Virus genome (UHGV): UHGV-2025275
DNA: 64,000 nucleotides
Reading direction: 5' to 3' (one strand)
Origin: a virus
Of this stretch, positions 1 through 21,066 are shown piece by piece (the first letter of the stretch is position 1; the number at the start of each line of letters is the position of its first letter). The translations under genes were made by a program, and so were the position numbers. Under the pieces are notes generated by a model. The model did not search any database, had not been told where the DNA came from, and saw nothing but the letters and a program-made list of their open reading frames with translations.

Positions 1-390
1 AGCTGCTCTCTAACTTCCGTATCCATCCCCACTCATTGGCCAGTGCCTTTAACTCAGCTGGTATGTTGTCAAATACGGTGGCTATAAGGAGATGATCAGG
101 TAGCTTACCCAGCTCGGCATCACGATCAACAGGAACCACGTCGTAAGCGGCATCCAGTATCATCTTGATATTGGCGATCGCCGCTTCGAAGATGTTGAAT
201 GTACGCAGTTCATCTGCCCAGCTATTGTCACGCATTCCGGCACGAACAATCCAATCATATTCTGTGCCGTGTGCCCAGTTCAGTCCGCGATCGGTGATTG
301 GGTCAAAACAGGCAATTGGCAGTTGTTCAAAGTCTTCCGCGGTAACGTGCGCAGTGCTGATAATAGCTGTCTTGTAGGCTTCAGTAATTT
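1..390 (-). CDS. hypothetical protein, partial (C-terminus runs off window start); no ATG start, possible TTG start near 390
   Basis: Open minus-strand frame from ~390 to position 1 without stops (…KITEAYKTAIISTAHVTAEDFEQLPIACFDPITDRGLNWAHG…); protein-like composition; not in ORF track because no ATG. Confidence 0.3.
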
Positions 391-960
391 TCAATATTAC
401 TTAAATCTCTTAACTAGTTGTTTTCTTATTTTAGTTATTATCAGAGATAAGAATAGGTAGAAAACATTTTGTTTGAAGCAGTGCGGCTGCCTCGATACTG
501 TCATAGCGATAATCAGGCGCATAGTGTCAAAGCTAAGTTCAGATGTTAGGGGCAGGGCAAAGTTGAAATGTCCACTTCGTGCCAGGAGCGGAAGTTGCTA
601 AGTTTGGTCTGCATTAATTTGAAGGGAGCAGAACACATGAGCCAAGAACGAATTTCTGCGAAATTTTTTTCGTGCACCGCGGAGGTGAAAGGTCATAAAT
701 GGTACGCCAGCACCGACTTTACCTAGCTTTTTTTAAGTTCAGCAGCAAAACCTGCCTTGCAGGTTTCCTGCGTCGGGATAATCGATACTGAACCTTGTGC
801 ATACCGTTCTCATCAGTTAAATTAAAGATTCCACACTCTTTACCGATATCACCTTGGTTCTTGCTTGTGATGCGTTCAGTGTTCAGCGCTGTTTGCTGTA
901 GCCCTCCAGACTGATTACAGACTGCCTCTTAAAAGCCAATCCTTACTCTAAAGGGAACTT

Positions 961-1902
961 ATGAGATTAAAATACTCAGCACTCTTACTCGCCGTTGCCA
1001 TTACAGGCTGTGATAACAAAAAAGACGTGATCGGTTGTTCCTCTGAAATGACCCAGTCAGCTCTCATGGATTTAATAAAAAAATCTGCTTATGAAGGTCT
1101 CTCTGAACAGGTCGACAAATACCCTGACGTCACTAATCAGACCAAACGAAGCGCTTTGGACAAGATTAAACTGACCATCTCTGAAATCTCCACAACTTCA
1201 AGTGACACGGGCAGCACAATGAAAACTTGTGAAGGGACCGTGACGATGACCCTACCTGCGAACGAGTACGCACAGCTTTCTGATGCTTACAGAAAGAACT
1301 TTAACCGTAATCTCGACAAGCAAATGGAAAGCCTGTCTTTGGATAACAACGCAAACGCCTTTTCAAAACGCATCTCCTACACCGCACAGGCAACCGACGA
1401 TCAGAAAAACGTTTTTGTGAAAGCTACTTCTAACAACCCAATATCAGTGGGTGCCGCTGCACTGACATCGCTTTCCATCATCAACCCGATCGTTGAGCAG
1501 CAAAAAATCCAGCAGGCTAAGGATGCCCAGCGAAGTCAAATTGAAGCGGAACAACAAGCACAACTCAGGGCGCAGCAACAGGATAAATATGAGGCGGAGC
1601 AGCAGGTTCAGCAAACCATTCAACAACAATCCTACCAGCAGCCTCAGCAACAAAAAGCTGACAACCTTGATCAGTCCCGAATGGCTTTTGCGAATGCTGA
1701 CTCTGATTTGAATACCGCTTGGAGCACATTAACACCAGAGAAGAAAAAAGAGTTGCTGCCTTCTCAGCGCCAGTGGATCAAAACTAAGGACGCTATGTGC
1801 GGCAAAGTTTCAATGCAGGGAACAGATGCTGAAGTCAAGAAAATGGTCGACTGCCAGACGCAAATGACCCTTTCAAGGACCGCGTTCTTCAGAAATCAAT
1901 AG
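961..1902 (+). CDS. lipoprotein with Gln-rich coiled-coil and C-terminal DUF1311/LprI-like (lysozyme-inhibitor-like) domain
   Basis: Signal peptide + lipobox LAVAITGC; C-terminal W…R…W…C…C pattern typical of DUF1311; one of the few plus-strand genes. Confidence 0.7.
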   Translation: MRLKYSALLLAVAITGCDNKKDVIGCSSEMTQSALMDLIKKSAYEGLSEQVDKYPDVTNQTKRSALDKIKLTISEISTTSSDTGSTMKTCEGTVTMTLPANEYAQLSDAYRKNFNRNLDKQMESLSLDNNANAFSKRISYTAQATDDQKNVFVKATSNNPISVGAAALTSLSIINPIVEQQKIQQAKDAQRSQIEAEQQAQLRAQQQDKYEAEQQVQQTIQQQSYQQPQQQKADNLDQSRMAFANADSDLNTAWSTLTPEKKKELLPSQRQWIKTKDAMCGKVSMQGTDAEVKKMVDCQTQMTLSRTAFFRNQ

Positions 1903-2104
1903 CGGAAACTCCCTTCAATCTGGTGGCCAAGGCTAAGCTGGCGCCAGCGTAATGCGGGATAATTTCAGCCGTTGTTCCATGATGCCCCACGCCGGATATT
2001 TTACTCGCGGTTAGAACGGGATTTTGGGACGTAAATATTTCATTAAAGGCGATGACCATCATAGTCATCGACTACATGAATTTTCTGTTAAAGATATGCA
2101 AGTA

Positions 2105-2299
2105 TTAAGACATCTTACTTTCCGTGATTACCAATGATGTTAATCGTTGCAGGCACTCAAAACCGTCCACATGAGTCTTGCCCAACCAATAGCCGCCACC
2201 ATACTCTCTCTCGCTGGAAAAAGACGCACTGGCCAGGTTTGAATGTTTAAGTGTCTCGCCTCTGTAGACGATCTGATAACTGGTGTCTTTTCCGCCCAT
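2105..2299 (-). CDS. small hypothetical protein (64 aa)
   Basis: ATG-initiated ORF in otherwise empty 550-nt spacer; weak SD. Confidence 0.25.
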   Translation of the reverse strand: MGGKDTSYQIVYRGETLKHSNLASASFSSEREYGGGYWLGKTHVDGFECLQRLTSLVITESKMS

Positions 2300-2400
2300 T
2301 TTATCATCCCAAAATACTGTATATTTAAACAGTTACTCTTTGATGAAATGCAGTCAAGTTTGACAGCGGGGATAATAACTTGTTGGTGAAAACAAATTAT

Positions 2401-2424
2401 TTAAGGCTATATCAATAGCCTTAA
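2401..2424 (-). terminator. stem-loop TTAAGGCTAT-ATCA-ATAGCCTTAA followed by T-rich tract on minus strand
   Basis: 10-bp perfect inverted repeat immediately 3' of the 242-aa gene stop. Confidence 0.5.
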
Positions 2425-2449
2425 ATTGGTGAAACCAGTTACGACCTCA

Positions 2450-3178
2450 TCATGATTCGGTGGCGTGTGGGTTTTGCCGCTGCAGTGTCTTGACCTGTTC
2501 TTCAAGCTCACGCACATACTCAACGAGAGATCCGCCTGGCGGTATTTGGCACTCTTCCATGAGTTGATAGTAAACGTCGGCTGCCGCGCGAATGTTTGAG
2601 CCTTTGGTTAACTGATCACTGAGCAGTTCGTCACGCTCTTTCATAAGCCGCACGCATTCCCCATTGCGTTGGTCGACTACAGCCTCAAGCTCTGCGATGC
2701 GCTCGCCTGGCGTTTTGCCATCCTTACGTTGAGTCGTAACCGTGAAACATCCAAGTTCAGGAACGTCGTAGTTCAATTCCAGATAGTTTTTTGCACCGTG
2801 TCGAACAAATTCGCCGGCGAACATGGTGGCGAACATGGCAGAGGCCAGCTCTCCGTTAAACAACGACTCCAGATCTACAGGAGTGCCAGCAGCAAGAGCG
2901 GCGCGCGCAGCCTCTATGACATGCATAAACTCATCATAATGTCTGGCGCGCTTCTCCAGCTCTGCCCACTGCTGACTGTTTCGACGCACCAGGTACTCAA
3001 TAAAAATCAGCGCTGATTCGTCGGCGTCGCCTTCAAATGAGACCTTACCCTTATCGACAATAATCGTGCCCACAGCGGTTGGGTTGTTGCCCTGAAGGCA
3101 AAATCTGAAAGGAGTCCCCGTGTTCATCGGTGATACAGCCTGTATATCCATAGAAGTGGCTTTATTCCTGCTTTCCAT
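2450..3178 (-). CDS. hypothetical protein (242 aa)
   Basis: ATG with AGAGGGA SD 8 nt upstream. Confidence 0.6.
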   Translation of the reverse strand: MESRNKATSMDIQAVSPMNTGTPFRFCLQGNNPTAVGTIIVDKGKVSFEGDADESALIFIEYLVRRNSQQWAELEKRARHYDEFMHVIEAARAALAAGTPVDLESLFNGELASAMFATMFAGEFVRHGAKNYLELNYDVPELGCFTVTTQRKDGKTPGERIAELEAVVDQRNGECVRLMKERDELLSDQLTKGSNIRAAADVYYQLMEECQIPPGGSLVEYVRELEEQVKTLQRQNPHATES

Positions 3179-3239
3179 GTGTTTTTCCCTCTAAGTATCG
3201 CGTCATTATTCTTACATAAAATAAGTATGTGGTTACCTA

Positions 3240-4925
3240 TTATTTTATGCGTTTGAAGACATACACACTGACAGTTATCCCCGTGTCATCAAACTCGCCT
3301 GTGAACGACTTACCTTTGGCGTAGACGAAATTCTCCAGCATCATCCAGTTCAGGGTTGGTGAGTCCCCCGGCAAAACAGCAACAAGGCGCCCGCCGACTT
3401 TAAGATGCTCCAGCGCGGCCAGCGTATGCTCTCTGTGACGGCCAAGAGAGTAGGGCGGGTTCATGACGATTTTGTCGAACTGATAGCCTGCGTTGTCCTC
3501 AGACCACTTCATGAAGTCACAGCAGACCGTATTTGTGTACCCCTTGCCAAGCAGGATATCAGCGAAGAGAGGTGCGACTTCTATGCAGGTAACGTCTTCC
3601 GGATTGGCGTCGATGCAGGCCAACAGATCTCCGCGCCCGGCTTCAGGCTCCAGCAGCTTCTCACCTGGCTTCAGCTCGATGGCTCTGGCAACGTACTCCG
3701 CTATCAAACGTGGGGTAGGGTAGAACTGGTGTGATTTTGTATCCGGTATTAAGCCGGTGGCCACAATCGTATTGAGCGTATGGCCGATCTCATACGGGAA
3801 CTGCCAGTGCTTTTTCTCCTGCACGCCGCCAATGAAGTTCAGTGTGCGCTCAAGCTCTTCCACCTGTGACTTCTGTAGGTTGGAATCAGAGAAGTACCAG
3901 ACGCCTTTGTCTTTGCTGAATCGCCCGTCGCGCAGCGCGGTACGAACCGGCTCGGAGATCGTCTTCTGGATTAACCCGAACTCTTTTGGTGCCCGTATTT
4001 TGGGTGCAGTACGGCATGGCGCCGGGATTGCTGCAGGCATACTGTAAGCCAGCACCTCATTCAGCTTCCAGGCCACGTCAGGATGTATTTCAAAGTGAAC
4101 GTTGCCGTTCTTGAACATCTTCACGCGCATCAGGTTTCCGTCGACATTCATCCAGTCACCGGTCTGGCAGTCGTTTGCCCGGTACGCAGCTGATAGCATC
4201 TCAGTTGTGCGGTTGATGGTGATGAACTCTTTGTGTGCGAAGAAATGAAGCATGACGCGCAGGTCGTCGATGTAGTCCTCTTTCCGGTAGTTCACGCTGA
4301 CGCTGTCCCGCCAGAACTCTGAAATGCAGCTGGCGATGATCAGCCGCTCGCTAAAGCCGTTCGTTTTATTGGTCTTGTGCGCAGGGCTTAGCGCCTTAAA
4401 CAAACCGTACACGCGCTCAGAGAGATATTTATGCCTGTCATTCAGCAGATTGACCATCGTGGGGATGACCGTCTCTGCTTTGAACTCAGGTACGCCAACG
4501 AACTCCTTAACCTTCATCTGGTAGCCGGTTCTGTCAGTCTTGATGGTTTCCTGCTTGCCTTCTATGAACTGTTCGCGCCACTCATCTCGGCGGGAAGCTG
4601 GCATGATCAGCAGAACGTTTGTCATATCTGTGACCTTCTTCCAGTATTCGGCCCAGATATTCTGCTTCACCCACTCAAGATCGACCTTATCCAGCCAGGC
4701 TCTGTTGAAGCGTGTGCGTTCGTCATCCGGCCGGTGGTTGAGTCGAAGCAGGCGGTTAATCATGTTGTGACGCTCATCGCCATAAACGAAGTCGTGAACC
4801 TGATGCATGAATGCGATCTCTTTCTCGCACTCGGCCACAATTTCGTGGATGACGTTCATTTCCTGCCGGTAGTCGATATCAGTGTTTGGGGTGATAGCGT
4901 CAATGATGGAAAGGGCTGTATTCAT
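3240..4925 (-). CDS. putative DNA methyltransferase (N6-adenine/N4-cytosine class, NPPY motif) with ~400-aa N-terminal extension
   Basis: Motif I-like EPEAGRGDL followed by IVMNPPYS near C-terminus; ORF-track start at 4943 is TTG, first ATG at 4925. Confidence 0.6.
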   Translation of the reverse strand: MNTALSIIDAITPNTDIDYRQEMNVIHEIVAECEKEIAFMHQVHDFVYGDERHNMINRLLRLNHRPDDERTRFNRAWLDKVDLEWVKQNIWAEYWKKVTDMTNVLLIMPASRRDEWREQFIEGKQETIKTDRTGYQMKVKEFVGVPEFKAETVIPTMVNLLNDRHKYLSERVYGLFKALSPAHKTNKTNGFSERLIIASCISEFWRDSVSVNYRKEDYIDDLRVMLHFFAHKEFITINRTTEMLSAAYRANDCQTGDWMNVDGNLMRVKMFKNGNVHFEIHPDVAWKLNEVLAYSMPAAIPAPCRTAPKIRAPKEFGLIQKTISEPVRTALRDGRFSKDKGVWYFSDSNLQKSQVEELERTLNFIGGVQEKKHWQFPYEIGHTLNTIVATGLIPDTKSHQFYPTPRLIAEYVARAIELKPGEKLLEPEAGRGDLLACIDANPEDVTCIEVAPLFADILLGKGYTNTVCCDFMKWSEDNAGYQFDKIVMNPPYSLGRHREHTLAALEHLKVGGRLVAVLPGDSPTLNWMMLENFVYAKGKSFTGEFDDTGITVSVYVFKRIK

Positions 4926-4935
4926 GATTGCACCA

Positions 4936-4966
4936 TTAAACAAATTGTTTTCTTGTTGGTGTTATT
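4936..4966. promoter_or_regulatory. motif-2 copy (AAACAA-A-TTGTTT palindrome) just upstream of the 567-aa MTase start
   Basis: ttaaacaaattgttttcttgttggtgttatt; one of >=7 dispersed copies. Confidence 0.5.
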
Positions 4967-7391: not shown

Positions 7392-7521
7392 TTGGATTCC
7401 ATTCAGTGTCAGAAAGAGTTGCGGCTGGCCAAGCCAGCCGCCTTTTGGCGTTCCATCCTGGAACAGTACCTAACCGGTACTTCGTCATCCTGACGAACGG
7501 TAAGATACCTGATTTAAAATG

Positions 7522-7541
7522 ATAGGTAAATACTTACCTAT
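7522..7541. promoter_or_regulatory. motif-1 palindrome ATAGGTAAATACTTACCTAT
   Basis: Near-perfect 20-bp palindrome, one of ~16 dispersed intergenic copies. Confidence 0.5.
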
Positions 7542-7799
7542 CATTTTGTGACAAAAATCCAATATCACGCTTGTGAGGCATATCAGCTGCGGAGTAGACG
7601 GCGATCTTCGACAGGCGGTCACACATTAAGTCGGCTTTGAGCGAGGAGCGGACGTTGACTTAGCCGGATCGCTTAGGGCTTTTAATATTACTGGCGCGGA
7701 TTTCTGGGATACTTTCAAGCTCTTTCCTCAACTAAAACGGAAAATTTCGGCGGACTTTCTACTAGATAGTCCGCCATTATAGTTGCTTTTATATAGTTA

Positions 7800-9482
7800 T
7801 TAATCAACCTTCCAAACGTTGACAGCTTGCTTTGACATCCATTTCTGAAAATCATTGACAGTTTCTAAATTCCACTCTGCATATTCAGTGACTTTTGAAG
7901 CCAGAAAATATCCAGATTTTGTATATTCTTTTTTCTTATCTTCAAATGATGAGCGCTTTAAGTTATCTTTATCCATTAAAATCATGTTTCCAAGCCTATC
8001 TTTTACATCATTAATTCCTTCACCAAAAGAATCGCACCATTCTTTTTCGGGGTGATAAGGACAAATATGTTCTAATGTGGTTTTTTCATAATCACATTGA
8101 TTACCTAAATGCCCCTCAATCTCAGAAAGTAAAAACCGTATTTTTTTTGCCGTTTGCCTACTTGGCATCCTATGAAACTCAAAAGCATTAAAGAATGAAT
8201 TATCATCAGGATACAAGCGTTTAAATTCTTCACTATTTTTTACATGACTAGCTCTTAAAAACTCTCGATTATAAACTTTGTTAGCAATTTGATTGTAAAT
8301 ATTCTCTTGCTCGCTGGGCGATAAGTGGCAAATAACGTTATAACGAATAGATAATACGTATAAATATCTTACGAGTTTAACAAACTCTTCAGGAGAAAAG
8401 TTACCGAAGGCAGCAAGGAATATCGTAAGTGGTTGCTTGATATTGAATAACCTTATTCCATTAAGATAATGCAAAACATTTCTGTATTTCTCATCTTGAT
8501 CTCCCCACCATGCATCATTAGGGTTAATCAATGATGCATAGATAGGTGAGTAGTCAATTAATGATTTTAAATACTGATACGCTTCTTCCGGTTTCGTTAA
8601 TATCTTTCTCATAGAGGAAAACAGGTTGTTCTTAGTGACCATTTTTCTCTGCGAGTTATAGTGATATCTAATGTAATCAGAAACATTGCTTTCGCCAAGT
8701 TGGACGATCATTTCTGACCATTGCTCGTCCAAATCATTGAGTTCATCTTCTCCGATTTGATCATCTTTTGTCACAATTGAGAATAAATAGTTCTTAAGTA
8801 GATCTGGGGTGGAAAGTTGAACACCTCTCGCATTCAAAGTTTCAAAAACTTTATAAGCATTAAGATCATCTTGCACTATTATCTTTGTGAAAACCATGCT
8901 CGAAGAAAAATCTGCAATGAACTGAGCAATATCAGCACCTGTTCTACCAAAATCTTTCTTAGTAAAAAAATCAAAACATTTTCTTATCAATTTATTAGTC
9001 GATGTTATACCTCGAGGATTTTGAGTCTCTAAATGCGATGACATTCTTTGAAAATAACTTTTATTGTTTCTATTTAGTTCTAATTTATTAATCACTTTGA
9101 GCGTAACGAAGTTCTTACTTCCTACAAAGTTTTGAGTTATACCATTGAGTCGCTCAGTGTTTCCCTCTACATCCTCTCCATTATCAATTAAGGTTTTGAT
9201 AGCTTTCATTGCAGCCAGAACTATAATCGATAACGTAACTAAACGTTGTTGCCCATCGATAATTTCATGTTGATACTGTTCTTTTTGCTGAAGGACAATG
9301 TAGCCCATATAATGGAACCCTTCATCATCAAGTGCATTTATATCCCCCCACAAGTCCTCCCATTGCCCCACATCCCATGCGTAGTCTCGCTGGAACCTGG
9401 GTACAATATATTTGTTTGGACCACCAATTAATTCATTAAAATTCTCATTTTTTGGTTCCATCAACATAAATTGCTTTGCCAT
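7800..9482 (-). CDS. DUF262 (ParB-like NTPase/nuclease) + C-terminal DUF1524 (His-Me finger) protein, GmrSD-like type IV restriction-like enzyme
   Basis: PRFQRDYAW … IDGQQRL (DGQQR motif of DUF262); C-terminal LEHICP…H region; gene markedly AT-rich vs neighbours. Confidence 0.65.
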   Translation of the reverse strand: MAKQFMLMEPKNENFNELIGGPNKYIVPRFQRDYAWDVGQWEDLWGDINALDDEGFHYMGYIVLQQKEQYQHEIIDGQQRLVTLSIIVLAAMKAIKTLIDNGEDVEGNTERLNGITQNFVGSKNFVTLKVINKLELNRNNKSYFQRMSSHLETQNPRGITSTNKLIRKCFDFFTKKDFGRTGADIAQFIADFSSSMVFTKIIVQDDLNAYKVFETLNARGVQLSTPDLLKNYLFSIVTKDDQIGEDELNDLDEQWSEMIVQLGESNVSDYIRYHYNSQRKMVTKNNLFSSMRKILTKPEEAYQYLKSLIDYSPIYASLINPNDAWWGDQDEKYRNVLHYLNGIRLFNIKQPLTIFLAAFGNFSPEEFVKLVRYLYVLSIRYNVICHLSPSEQENIYNQIANKVYNREFLRASHVKNSEEFKRLYPDDNSFFNAFEFHRMPSRQTAKKIRFLLSEIEGHLGNQCDYEKTTLEHICPYHPEKEWCDSFGEGINDVKDRLGNMILMDKDNLKRSSFEDKKKEYTKSGYFLASKVTEYAEWNLETVNDFQKWMSKQAVNVWKVD

Positions 9483-10422
9483 TTAATCAATTCCCGTTAT
9501 TTTAAAATGACGTCATCATAAGGCTGCTAATTATTAACAAGGAAATATGACGAAAGTTTGCATAATTTTGATGTACTATGAACAATTCAAGCATTAAAAG
9601 GGACTCTTGACGCTCGACTTCATAAAAGATAATCATCTAGGCAGCCTTGAGCAAGCTATAGAGTTGTTAAAAGTCATCCTATATATCTAAACCACTGTCT
9701 GGAGCAACTGTAACTTAGAGCGCGAACACTCAAGAATCCCCGCTGGTAGTGGCAACTTTTGACAATTCGCTCCCATCGCCGGTTGACTGGCCTGTCCTCA
9801 GTTGATTAACACATTTTGAGGTCAGCTATGTCCGCTTATGGCACATTGAAGACATTGCGATGGGCGATTTTTTTCTCTCGCGCGCGTGCGTGTAAATATT
9901 AAAAATGTTTAGAAAATAAAAACTTACTTCCCAGAACAGGTTTTAATAAAACCTGAACTGAACGAACGAAGTGAGTGAAGTTCACCTCGAACGAAGTGAG
10001 AGGTTGTCTTTTCAGGTAATACTCTCCCAGGGAGGTGAGTACAAAATCTCCTCACCAACCTGGTCGTTACATAACCTGAAAAGTTATGACCTAAGTCTAC
10101 TGCCAGCTTAGGCTTGGGAAGTTATGGATGACAGCACCCCAGAACCGAGATCTTCCCACACTTTATGAAGGGGAGTACTGGATTCAACCTCTCGAAACAC
10201 TCCAGACTCGACAATCATAAAGTGACCCTTCTCTCCGCTCACTTTGGTTCCCCCTTCCCCAACCCCTAAGCGGTGCCGGTTCTACGCTGGTAGTGAGCTT
10301 TTTTAAACCTGACGCCAGTGACGCTATCCCCCACCCATCAGGTCGAGCTGCCGGAATCAATCCGGAAAGCGAGTGGATTTTATCACTGGCGATCTGCGTT
10401 TTAAATGGTAAGTACTTACCGA

Positions 10423-11463: not shown

Positions 11464-11483
11464 ATAGGTAAACACTTACCTAT
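11464..11483. promoter_or_regulatory. motif-1 palindrome ATAGGTAAACACTTACCTAT 13 nt upstream of dam start
   Basis: perfect palindrome arms TAGGTAA/TTACCTA. Confidence 0.5.
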
Positions 11484-21045: not shown

Positions 21046-21066
21046 ATAGATAAGTACTTACCTATC
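21046..21066. promoter_or_regulatory. motif-1 palindrome ATAGATAAGTACTTACCTATC upstream of nrdA
   Basis: between resolvase stop and nrdA start. Confidence 0.5.

What the first reader, a model, noticed from the sequence alone, without database searches (positions are those of the whole stretch)
7392..9800. Phage-borne DUF262/DUF1524 (GmrSD-like type IV restriction-like) nuclease, AT-rich island
The 560-aa protein has the DUF262 DGQQR motif (IDGQQRL), the N-terminal FQRDYAW region, and a C-terminal His-containing block consistent with a DUF1524 His-Me nuclease.
- The gene is much more AT-rich than its flanks.
- It is followed by ~0.9 kb of non-coding DNA.
GmrSD-family enzymes attack modified DNA. 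One encoded on a phage or phage-plasmid would act as a weapon against competing modified-DNA phages.
Basis: partly seen in the sequence, partly recalled or inferred. Interest (0 to 1): 0.65.

Follow-up and report, generated by a model that had tools for sequence, protein, structure and literature searches.

The report
Phage-plasmid HEC-06 defence nuclease cassette
The gene is a real, intact copy of an already validated anti-phage nuclease (HEC-06, a GmrSD relative) on an SSU5-like Salmonella phage-plasmid; the gene is ordinary, but it sits in a small mobile cassette whose end sites match those of the phage P2 defence hotspot.

Summary
Window 7800..9482 (minus strand) encodes a 560-aa protein with GmrSD_N (DUF262) and GmrSD_C (DUF1524) domains, DGQQR at 76-80 and EHICP at 471-475. 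The gene has 34% GC against 49% for the window.

It is a full-length member of PADLOC family HEC-06 (E 2e-215). It is 80% identical to the HEC-06 protein shown by others to defend E. coli; in that protein Q79A, R80A, E471A and H472A abolish defence, and the window protein keeps the same residues at the same positions. HEC-06 on Salmonella SSU5-group phage-plasmids has already been reported, so the finding as stated is not new.

New context found here:
- The gene lies in a 2.2-kb cassette (7630-9853) that displaced the backbone rnhA gene, leaving a 34-codon remnant.
- The same cassette occurs in lambdoid prophages.
- The cassette is bounded by two 24-bp palindromic sites that also end the "inverted repeats" of the phage P2 Z-region hotspot.
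- The "0.9 kb non-coding" stretch lies upstream of the gene, not after it.
- That stretch contains an unannotated, ultra-conserved ~450-nt structured-RNA candidate.

The parts
7800..9482 (-). HEC-06-type GmrSD-like nuclease gene, 560 aa: DUF262/ParB-like NTPase domain (DGQQR 76-80), helical linker, DUF1524 His-Me nuclease domain (EHICP 471-475)
7630..9853 (-). The mobile cassette: site A, 347-nt leader, gene, terminator-like hairpin, site B. It is foreign to the SSU5/pHCM2 backbone. It is 95% identical over 2,215 bp to a K. pneumoniae lambdoid prophage, and 87% identical over 2.0 kb to Klebsiella/Enterobacter P4-like satellites
9830..9853 (-). Site A (GTCTTCAATGTGCCATAAGCGGAC). The left half is shared with other cargo variants at this locus and the right half travels with the cassette. 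Homology breakpoints fall at the GTGCCA core
7630..7653 (-). Site B (GTCCGCTCCTCGCTCAAAGCCGAC, one mismatch to the B consensus), the downstream end of the cassette. In S. Tennessee-type relatives an IS110-family element is inserted inside it
9483..9829 (-). Cassette-borne leader upstream of the gene. About 265 nt are conserved with the Klebsiella prophage and satellite copies. No consensus sigma-70 promoter was found, and the 44-aa ORF here is broken in the satellite copy
7749..7775 (-). Terminator-like hairpin (13-nt arms, 92% complementary) about 25 nt after the stop codon, followed by a T-rich tail
   Evidence: pair I16
7537..7638 (-). Remnant of the last 34 codons of backbone rnhA (RNase HI), 79% identical to pHCM2 RnhA residues 169-202. 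It shows that the cassette displaced rnhA
   Evidence: (rnhA is the usual occupant)
9925..10376 (-). Backbone element, not part of the cassette: an ultra-conserved, unannotated ~450-nt structured-RNA candidate that fills most of the 'non-coding' stretch and ends in a terminator-like hairpin (9932-9960)
10377..10420 (-). Backbone palindrome GGTAAGTACTTACC plus a promoter-like TTTAAA-17-TAAAAT that points into the RNA candidate

Best explanation
Window 7800..9482 (minus strand) encodes a functional single-protein anti-phage nuclease of the HEC-06 branch of the GmrSD family.

Inferred mechanism:
1. The N-terminal ParB-like DUF262 domain binds and hydrolyses NTP through its DGQQR motif.
2. This governs DNA engagement by the C-terminal DUF1524 His-Me (E471/H472) nuclease.
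3. The nuclease nicks or cuts incoming phage DNA. The most likely targets are T-even-type genomes with modified cytosines, while ordinary host and phage-plasmid DNA is spared.

Expressed from the resident SSU5-like phage-plasmid, it would protect the Salmonella lysogen, and so the element itself, from competing phages.

The gene is carried in a self-contained 2.2-kb low-GC cassette (leader, gene, terminator-like hairpin). Two 24-bp palindromic sites, A and B, bound the cassette. It replaced the backbone RNase HI gene and circulates among lambdoid prophages, P2-type hotspots and phage-plasmids.

Shown here: domains, motifs, orthology, purifying selection, cassette limits and shared sites. Inferred: nuclease activity of this copy, its target, and how the cassette moves.
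For: Family and orthology:
- Pfam GmrSD_N and GmrSD_C both match.
- PADLOC HEC-06 model PDLC04154 matches at 2.1e-215 over residues 1-560.
- The protein is 80.2% identical, without gaps, to the E. coli Rac-prophage copy. That copy is 100% identical to the 399 residues published for the tested HEC-06.
- Q79, R80, E471 and H472, whose alanine mutants abolish defence, are present at the same positions and are invariant in 39 homologs.

Selection and spread:
- dN/dS is 0.04-0.09 against the Klebsiella copies.
- The exact protein occurs in 178 sample blocks, always on contigs under 200 kb; every place shown had SSU5-like context.

Structure and target:
- The best structural match is the DUF262/DUF1524 nickase DndI, 9JFL (E 4e-15, TM 0.63).
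- HEC-06 is reported to block T4, and a distant homolog is modification-dependent.

Single-gene cassette:
- Flanks differ completely between the phage-plasmid, lambdoid prophage, Rac prophage and P4-like satellite contexts.
Against: - This copy has never been assayed.
- The phage range of the tested HEC-06 is only in a figure I could not read. The T4 statement is second-hand.
- The modification-dependence data come from a 22%-identical homolog.
- The nearest solved relative, DndI, cuts unmodified DNA and needs a modification partner.
- S46 of the tested protein is G46 here, although the S46A mutant was still active.
- No promoter was identified in the leader.
- The N-terminal half of the AlphaFold model has low confidence.
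Confidence: 0.8

Rival explanations
1. It is a DndI/SspE-like reader of phosphorothioate (PT) DNA modification. It would work only together with a host Dnd or Ssp modification system and would restrict unmodified DNA.
For: - The closest solved structure, and the only significant PDB sequence hit, is DndI.
- PADLOC 'Orf5' and SspE models also match.
- The family is known to use PT for self/non-self discrimination.
Against: - There are no dnd or ssp genes in the cassette or in any of four unrelated contexts.
- The tested ortholog protects E. coli K-12 on its own.
- The PT-sensing tyrosine (DndI Y25, SspE Y30) aligns with an invariant Phe30.
- Identity to DndI is only 20%.
Confidence: 0.07
2. It is an inert passenger: a horizontally acquired gene that is silent or non-functional on this element.
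For: - No consensus promoter was found in the leader.
- The low GC suggests H-NS-type silencing is possible (inference).
- Relatives carry an IS110 element at the cassette end.
Against: - The ORF is intact at the family's standard length of 560 aa.
- All catalytic residues are kept.
- dN/dS is 0.04-0.09.
- The identical protein is found in 178 sample blocks.
- The leader is co-conserved with the gene across hosts.
Confidence: 0.08
3. Its main targets are rival mobile elements (plasmids, other phage-plasmids, satellites) rather than lytic modified-DNA phages.
For: - The cassette lives only on mobile elements that compete within cells: a phage-plasmid, prophages and P4-like satellites.
- The target specificity of HEC-06 is not defined in the text I could read.
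Against: - The only experimental data are anti-phage plaque assays.
- There is no evidence of plasmid restriction.
Confidence: 0.05

Closest known systems
HEC-06 (Hma-embedded candidate 06; PADLOC PDLC04154; tested protein WP_096851903.1 of E. coli MOD1-EC1687; bioRxiv 10.1101/2024.01.29.577857)
   Same: - Same length (560 aa) and 80% identity with no gaps.
- Same DGQQR and EHICP motifs at the same residue numbers.
- A single-gene system.
- Also carried on prophages (Rac-like) in E. coli.
   Different: - 20% of residues differ, including S46 to G46.
- It is carried on an SSU5-like phage-plasmid in place of rnhA, rather than embedded in an Hma system.
- It is untested.
GmrSD type IV restriction enzymes (EcoCTGmrSD, Eco94GmrSD) and BrxU
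   Same: - DUF262 NTPase, helical linker and DUF1524 His-Me nuclease in one chain.
- DGQQR motif and (D/E)H catalytic pair.
- Defence against T-even phages.
   Different: - Very low sequence identity; the HEC-06 authors report 23.7% over 11% coverage to BrxU.
- PADLOC's generic type IV model scores only 6e-13.
- It lacks the BrxU RLFDS motif, according to the authors.
- Substrate specificity is not determined.
DndI (PDB 9JFL) and SspE, phosphorothioate-sensing DUF262/DUF1524 nickases
   Same: - Best structural match (Foldseek E 4e-15, TM 0.63).
- Same two-domain plan and motifs.
   Different: - 20% identity.
- No Dnd or Ssp partner genes.
- Phe in place of the PT-sensing Tyr.
- DndI restricts unmodified DNA and is toxic without its modification partner.
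Gene cassettes of the phage P2 Z-region hotspot (GenBank AJ512676-AJ512683; Nilsson, Karlsson and Haggard-Ljungquist 2004, Mol Biol Evol 21:1; paper not readable here)
   Same: - Low-GC cargo bounded by the same sites.
- The annotated 'left inverted repeat' ends in site A (GTCCGCTnnGTGCCAnnAGCGGAC).
- The 'right inverted repeat' begins with site B (core CCTCGCTCAAAGC, identical to the window's).
- Extra sites lie between neighbouring cargo genes.
   Different: - Here the sites lie in an SSU5-like phage-plasmid and in lambdoid prophages, not next to P2 tail-fibre genes.
- The roughly 90 nt of P2-specific repeat outside the 24-bp sites is not shared.

Membership tests
GmrSD family (Pfam PF03235 + PF07510) | N-terminal DUF262/ParB-like NTPase domain with a DGQQR motif | tested here: met
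   GmrSD_N at 9.6e-36, profile positions 2-199 of 199. DGQQR at 76-80, invariant in 39 homologs.
GmrSD family (Pfam PF03235 + PF07510) | C-terminal DUF1524 His-Me finger nuclease with a catalytic (D/E)-H and a downstream Asn | tested here: met
   GmrSD_C at 2.9e-15, profile positions 1-137 of 138. E471 and H472 invariant, N499 at least 90% conserved. Strand 469-472, strand 500-503 and helix 513-522 in the model. Aligned to the DndI HNH block.
GmrSD family (Pfam PF03235 + PF07510) | Cleavage dependent on modified cytosine (hmC or glucosyl-hmC) DNA | not testable with these tools
   Literature only, for relatives.
HEC-06 (PADLOC) | Full-length match to the HEC-06 profile as the best-scoring defence family | tested here: met
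   PDLC04154 at 2.1e-215, residues 1-560 against profile 1-567 of 569; top of 26 hits.
HEC-06 (PADLOC) | Residues required for defence in the tested protein (Q79, R80, E471, H472) | tested here: met
   The same residues at the same numbers. 80.2% identity to the E. coli copy that matches the published sequence.
HEC-06 (PADLOC) | Acts as a single gene with no conserved partner | tested here: met
   The cassette holds one conserved ORF. Neighbours differ completely in four contexts. The upstream 44-aa ORF is broken in L004.
HEC-06 (PADLOC) | Reduces plaquing of phages | not testable with these tools
   Shown only for the 80% ortholog.
DndI/SspE phosphorothioate-sensing nucleases | Genetic linkage to dnd or ssp modification genes | tested here: not met
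   None are present in the window flanks or in any related locus.
DndI/SspE phosphorothioate-sensing nucleases | PT-sensing tyrosine in the N-terminal hydrophobic patch (DndI Y25, SspE Y30) | tested here: not met
   DndI P23-T24-Y25-Q26 aligns with P28-R29-F30-Q31. F30 is invariant.
P2 Z-region-type cassette (sites A and B) | Cargo bounded upstream by site A and downstream by site B, with a GC content foreign to the backbone | tested here: met
   Window A at 9853..9830 and B at 7653..7630. The same order is seen in Rac prophage L141 and in P2-EC46. No such matches in 20 shuffles.
Integron gene cassette | attC site with RYYYAAC/GTTRRRY core sites and an IntI integrase nearby | tested here: not met
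   The bases after the sites are variable (ATT, GTT, GCT and others) and do not follow GTTRRRY. The arms show no hairpin-preserving covariation. Only ordinary phage integrases appear in the loci. This was a check by inspection, not a formal attC model.

The most novel reading that the evidence does not exclude
The two 24-bp sites that bound this cassette, A (core GTGCCA) and B (core TCGCTC), could be the recombination sites of an uncharacterised cassette-exchange system. That system would shuttle one- or two-gene defence cargos among P2-like phages, lambdoid prophages and SSU5-like phage-plasmids of Enterobacteriaceae, like a phage-world analogue of integron or pdif modules, using a recombinase not yet identified.

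If so, the HEC-06 gene here is one captured cargo, and the breakpoints inside the GTGCCA core are hybrid sites left by exchange.
Probability: 0.3. Interest if true: 0.75.

Novelty: new member of a known kind. Interest (0 to 1): 0.38.

Why it matters
The gene itself adds little. It is another carrier of a validated defence nuclease, relevant to phage therapy and to the typing of Salmonella that carry SSU5/pHCM2-type elements.

The context matters more.
- It gives a clean, dated example of a defence gene displacing a backbone gene (rnhA) on a phage-plasmid.
- The same cassette, with the same end sites, is found in lambdoid prophages and at the P2 hotspot. How defence genes move between phage hotspots was left open by Rousset et al. 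2022. The A and B sites make that question testable.
- The neighbouring ultra-conserved RNA candidate is unannotated in every one of the 687 related plasmid records that contain it.

Tried and rejected
- NCBIfam gave no family.
- The PHROGs hit (phrog_21165) has no known function.
- Rfam gave nothing credible for the whole region or for the RNA candidate, only miRNA/lncRNA noise below threshold.
- The consensus promoter scan found no site in the cassette leader on the gene's strand.
- The 44-aa ORF just upstream of the gene is called in some assemblies. I rejected it as a partner gene because stop codons break it in the satellite copy.
- The AlphaFold model from 39 close homologs was poor in the N-terminal domain (pLDDT below 50). 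I used it only for the C-terminal topology and one Foldseek search.
- I tested whether sites A and B are hairpins (RNA or ssDNA, attC-like). There were 140 single-sided pair-breaking changes against 9 compensatory ones, so they behave as sequence-conserved sites rather than stems.
- I considered dif/pdif (XerCD), loxP, cix and nut/boxA-boxB from memory. No sequence resemblance was good enough to pursue.
- Nilsson et al. 2004 and Odegrip et al. 2006 could not be read. A text search for the site sequences found no paper.
- I did not work out which system the PADLOC 'Orf5' models belong to.
Full report
**1. The observation**

The window holds an ORF at 7800..9482 on the minus strand that encodes 560 aa.
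- FQRDYAW is at residues 30-36, DGQQR at 76-80 and EHICP at 471-475.
- The gene is 34.2% GC against 49.1% for the window, and the sliding profile drops to 32-36% only across roughly 7750-9500.
- Pfam finds GmrSD_N (9.6e-36) and GmrSD_C (2.9e-15, profile positions 1-137 of 138), both far above their curated cut-offs.

Two details need correcting.
- The gene is on the minus strand, so the 940-bp ORF-poor stretch (9483-10422) lies upstream of it.
- The foreign island is 7630-9853, not 7392-9800.

**2. What the element is**

The flanks are 97-98% identical to Salmonella phage SSU5 and to pHCM2 of S. Typhi. 687 PLSDB plasmids share them, nearly all ~105-120 kb and non-mobilizable, and IncFIB in the records I inspected. 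A 25-kb stretch elsewhere in the window is 96.9% identical to SSU5 over 80% of its length. The window is therefore an SSU5-group phage-plasmid.

The exact protein is on record in 178 sample blocks. It is always on contigs under 200 kb, and every place shown lay between the Dam methylase/76-aa ORF and the 164-aa ORF/Rha genes.

**3. What the gene is**

PADLOC's HEC-06 model PDLC04154 matches at 2.1e-215 over the whole protein.

HEC-06 is a GmrSD-like single-gene system. Payne et al. (bioRxiv 10.1101/2024.01.29.577857) showed that it reduces plaquing of coliphages in E. coli K-12 deltaRM. In their hands Q79A, R80A, E471A and H472A abolish defence, and S46A does not.

Their supplementary table gives the tested protein as WP_096851903.1, 560 aa, with 399 residues printed.
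- The window protein is 80.7% identical to those 399 residues without gaps.
- It is 80.2% identical over all 560 residues to an E. coli Rac-prophage copy, which itself is 100% identical to the published 399 residues.
- The four essential residues are present at the same numbers and are invariant in 39 homologs down to 61% identity.

dN/dS against the Klebsiella copies is 0.04-0.09, so the protein is under strong purifying selection.

The AlphaFold model is weak in the N-terminal domain (mean pLDDT 67.7). It does show a strand-strand-helix arrangement around E471/H472 and N499. Its only significant PDB matches are the two chains of DndI, 9JFL, a DUF262/DUF1524 ATPase-nickase (E 4e-15, TM 0.63).

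**4. Mechanism, and how far it is shown**

By homology, the DUF262 domain is an NTPase whose DGQQR motif is needed for defence. The DUF1524 domain is a His-Me nuclease whose E-H pair is also needed.

Which DNA it attacks is not established for this branch.
- A later preprint says HEC-06 blocks T4. It also shows that a 22%-identical Bacteroides homolog stops T-even phages but not unmodified T4-GT7.
- Within the wider family, BrxU and GmrSD need modified cytosines, SspE is switched on by host phosphorothioate, and DndI cuts unmodified DNA unless phosphorothioate is present.
- The DndI/SspE mode is unlikely here. No dnd or ssp genes accompany the gene in any context. The ortholog works alone in K-12. 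The phosphorothioate-sensing tyrosine aligns with an invariant phenylalanine.

I therefore take [quoted passage not shown] as the best reading. Confidence is good for the defence role and moderate for the target.

**5. Prior knowledge**

A survey of phage-plasmids in clinical Enterobacteriaceae reports HEC-06 among the defence systems found only in SSU5-group elements of S. enterica (bioRxiv 10.1101/2025.09.12.675607). The finding as worded is therefore a new member of a known kind, and its occurrence on such elements has already been noted.

**6. The island is a discrete cassette that displaced rnhA**

Backbone homology to pHCM2 stops at window 7627 and resumes at 9865. Homology to pMS-37c stops at 7647 and resumes at 9828.

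In SSU5, pHCM2, phage Cyrano, Klebsiella phage ST13-OXA48phi12.3 and four further plasmids, this locus holds rnhA (RNase HI). In the window only the last 34 codons of rnhA survive, at 7638..7537. Other relatives carry different cargo here: a hypothetical gene plus two GNAT acetyltransferases, or small unknown genes.

The same DNA occurs on other mobile elements.
- Window 9844 to 7630 is 95% identical to a K. pneumoniae lambdoid prophage, where it lies between the replication genes and dinI.
- Window 9746 to 7750 is 87% identical to P4-like satellite islands in Klebsiella and Enterobacter chromosomes.

The cassette thus travels as leader, gene and terminator-like hairpin.

**7. The cassette ends are specific sites shared with the P2 hotspot**

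At the upstream junction lies GTCTTCAATGTGCCATAAGCGGAC (site A). At the downstream junction lies GTCCGCTCCTCGCTCAAAGCCGAC (site B).
- The window and the other cargo variants share the left half of A and diverge right after the GTGCCA core or the right arm. The Klebsiella prophage shares the core, the right half and the cargo.
In those contigs the sequence 5' of the site falls into a few conserved families, and the sequence 3' of it diverges at once.
- One of those families is the end of the P2 tail-fibre assembly gene region. GenBank records AJ512676-AJ512683 ("P2-EC.. proviral Z-region") annotate it as a "left inverted repeat" that ends in site A. The "right inverted repeat" begins with site B, whose core is identical to the window's. 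These records belong to Nilsson et al. [quoted passage not shown] I could not read that paper.
- The order A, gene, B also flanks the tested-type HEC-06 in E. coli Rac prophages.
- In pMS-37c a site separates each cargo gene.
- Of 121 exact A sites, 77 have another A or B site within 6 kb, which defines about 50 distinct cassettes of 0.4-5.8 kb.
- Three of ten sampled cargo proteins hit PADLOC models (PDC-S39, a TIR protein, PDC-S33).
- Matches at up to 4 mismatches were absent from 20 shuffles of the window.
- The arms vary mostly by single-sided changes (140) rather than compensatory ones (9). The sites therefore behave as conserved sequence, as protein-binding or recombination sites do, not as hairpins.

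Whether exchange is site-specific or is homologous recombination on short conserved boundaries remains open. No recombinase was identified. pHCM2, the rnhA-bearing state, has no such sites at up to 4 mismatches, so the first replacement of rnhA was not a simple insertion into a pre-existing site. Rousset et al. 2022 explicitly left the exchange mechanism of P2/P4 hotspots open.

**8. The "non-coding" 0.9 kb**

- 9483-9829 is the cassette's own leader. About 265 nt are co-conserved with the gene.
- 9830-9853 is site A.
- Beyond that is backbone. A palindrome GGTAAGTACTTACC with a promoter-like TTTAAA-17-TAAAAT points into a ~450-nt segment (10376 to 9925, minus strand).

That segment is almost invariant among elements whose flanking genes differ by 15-20%.
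- It is present at 90% identity or more in nearly all of the 687 related plasmids, with no annotation in any listed record.
- A 1-nt deletion in the Klebsiella lineage breaks its longest internal ORF.
- It folds to -170.2 kcal/mol, z = -4.84.
- On eight sequences the consensus structure has 142 pairs with 98.8% of cells paired. Nine pairs carry compensatory changes; 0 of 500 shuffles reach that, and slid controls give 0-4.
- It ends in a hairpin plus a T-run.
- Rfam has no match.

I regard it as a candidate new structured RNA of SSU5-group phage-plasmids. One speculative idea follows from its several G-runs (GGGTGGGGG ... GGGGTTGGGGAAGGGGG) and its position directly upstream of RNase HI in most relatives: an R-loop or primer-type RNA. 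I did not test this.

**9. Verdict**

However, the gene is a member of an already named and validated family, and its presence on this kind of element has been reported.

What is worth a second look is the cassette architecture, with sites A and B shared with P2 and lambdoid prophages, and the neighbouring conserved RNA candidate.

Noticed in passing
window 9925-10376 (minus strand): An ultra-conserved, unannotated ~450-nt element between the 76-aa ORF and the cargo locus. It is nearly invariant across divergent SSU5-group elements. Predicted structure z = -4.84; 9 compensatory pairs; terminator-like 3' end; no Rfam family. It is a candidate novel structured RNA. It is G-run-rich and sits directly upstream of rnhA in most relatives, which suggests an R-loop or primer RNA (speculative).
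   Followed up: partly
window 570-593 (+), 7630-7653, 9830-9853; loci L003, L010, L018, L019, L140, L141: 24-bp palindromic sites A (GTCCGCTnnGTGCCAnnAGCGGAC) and B (core TCGCTC) bound cargo cassettes in this phage-plasmid, in lambdoid and Rac prophages and at the P2 Z-region hotspot. A third site A lies in a second variable region of the window.
   Followed up: partly
window 1-3206: A second variable cargo region, downstream of the DUF4942 gene (3240..4943). Most relatives match only from about 3207 onward and carry other genes here (NYN, GFA, HD-domain, DUF6404, a group II intron, IS elements). The window has an LprI-family ORF (961..1902) and a site A at 570-593.
   Followed up: partly
window 7525-7538, 10407-10420, 11467-11480, 21049-21062 and about 6 more: The palindrome GGTAAGTAnTTACC gives 18 strand-matches at up to 2 mismatches (0.5 expected by chance). 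Two copies bracket the cargo locus, and one (10407-10420) is followed by a promoter-like -10 element. It is probably an operator or promoter motif of the phage-plasmid backbone.
   Followed up: no
L001 3648-5134 (S. Tennessee plasmid NZ_CP014995), equivalent to window 7641-7646: In close relatives an IS110-family element is inserted exactly inside site B, between GTCCGCT and CCTCGC. This suggests that the IS targets this repeated site, much as IS1111-type elements target attC sites or transposon ends.
   Followed up: partly
window 7537-7638 (minus strand): A 34-codon 3' remnant of rnhA, 79% identical to pHCM2 RnhA residues 169-202. This element therefore lacks its own RNase HI.
   Followed up: yes
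L004-L009 (Klebsiella/Enterobacter chromosomes), gene at 8001-9683: A 95%-identical copy sits at the distal end of P4-like satellite islands (integrase, AlpA, D5-type primase), without A or B sites. In L007 a second GmrSD_N-only protein (519 aa) and an AAA_15 gene lie just downstream.
   Followed up: no
window 7800-9482 protein against PADLOC: PADLOC 'Orf5' models also match very strongly (PDLC02687 at 1.2e-172). HEC-06 and 'Orf5' therefore overlap as families. I did not establish which system 'Orf5' belongs to.
   Followed up: no
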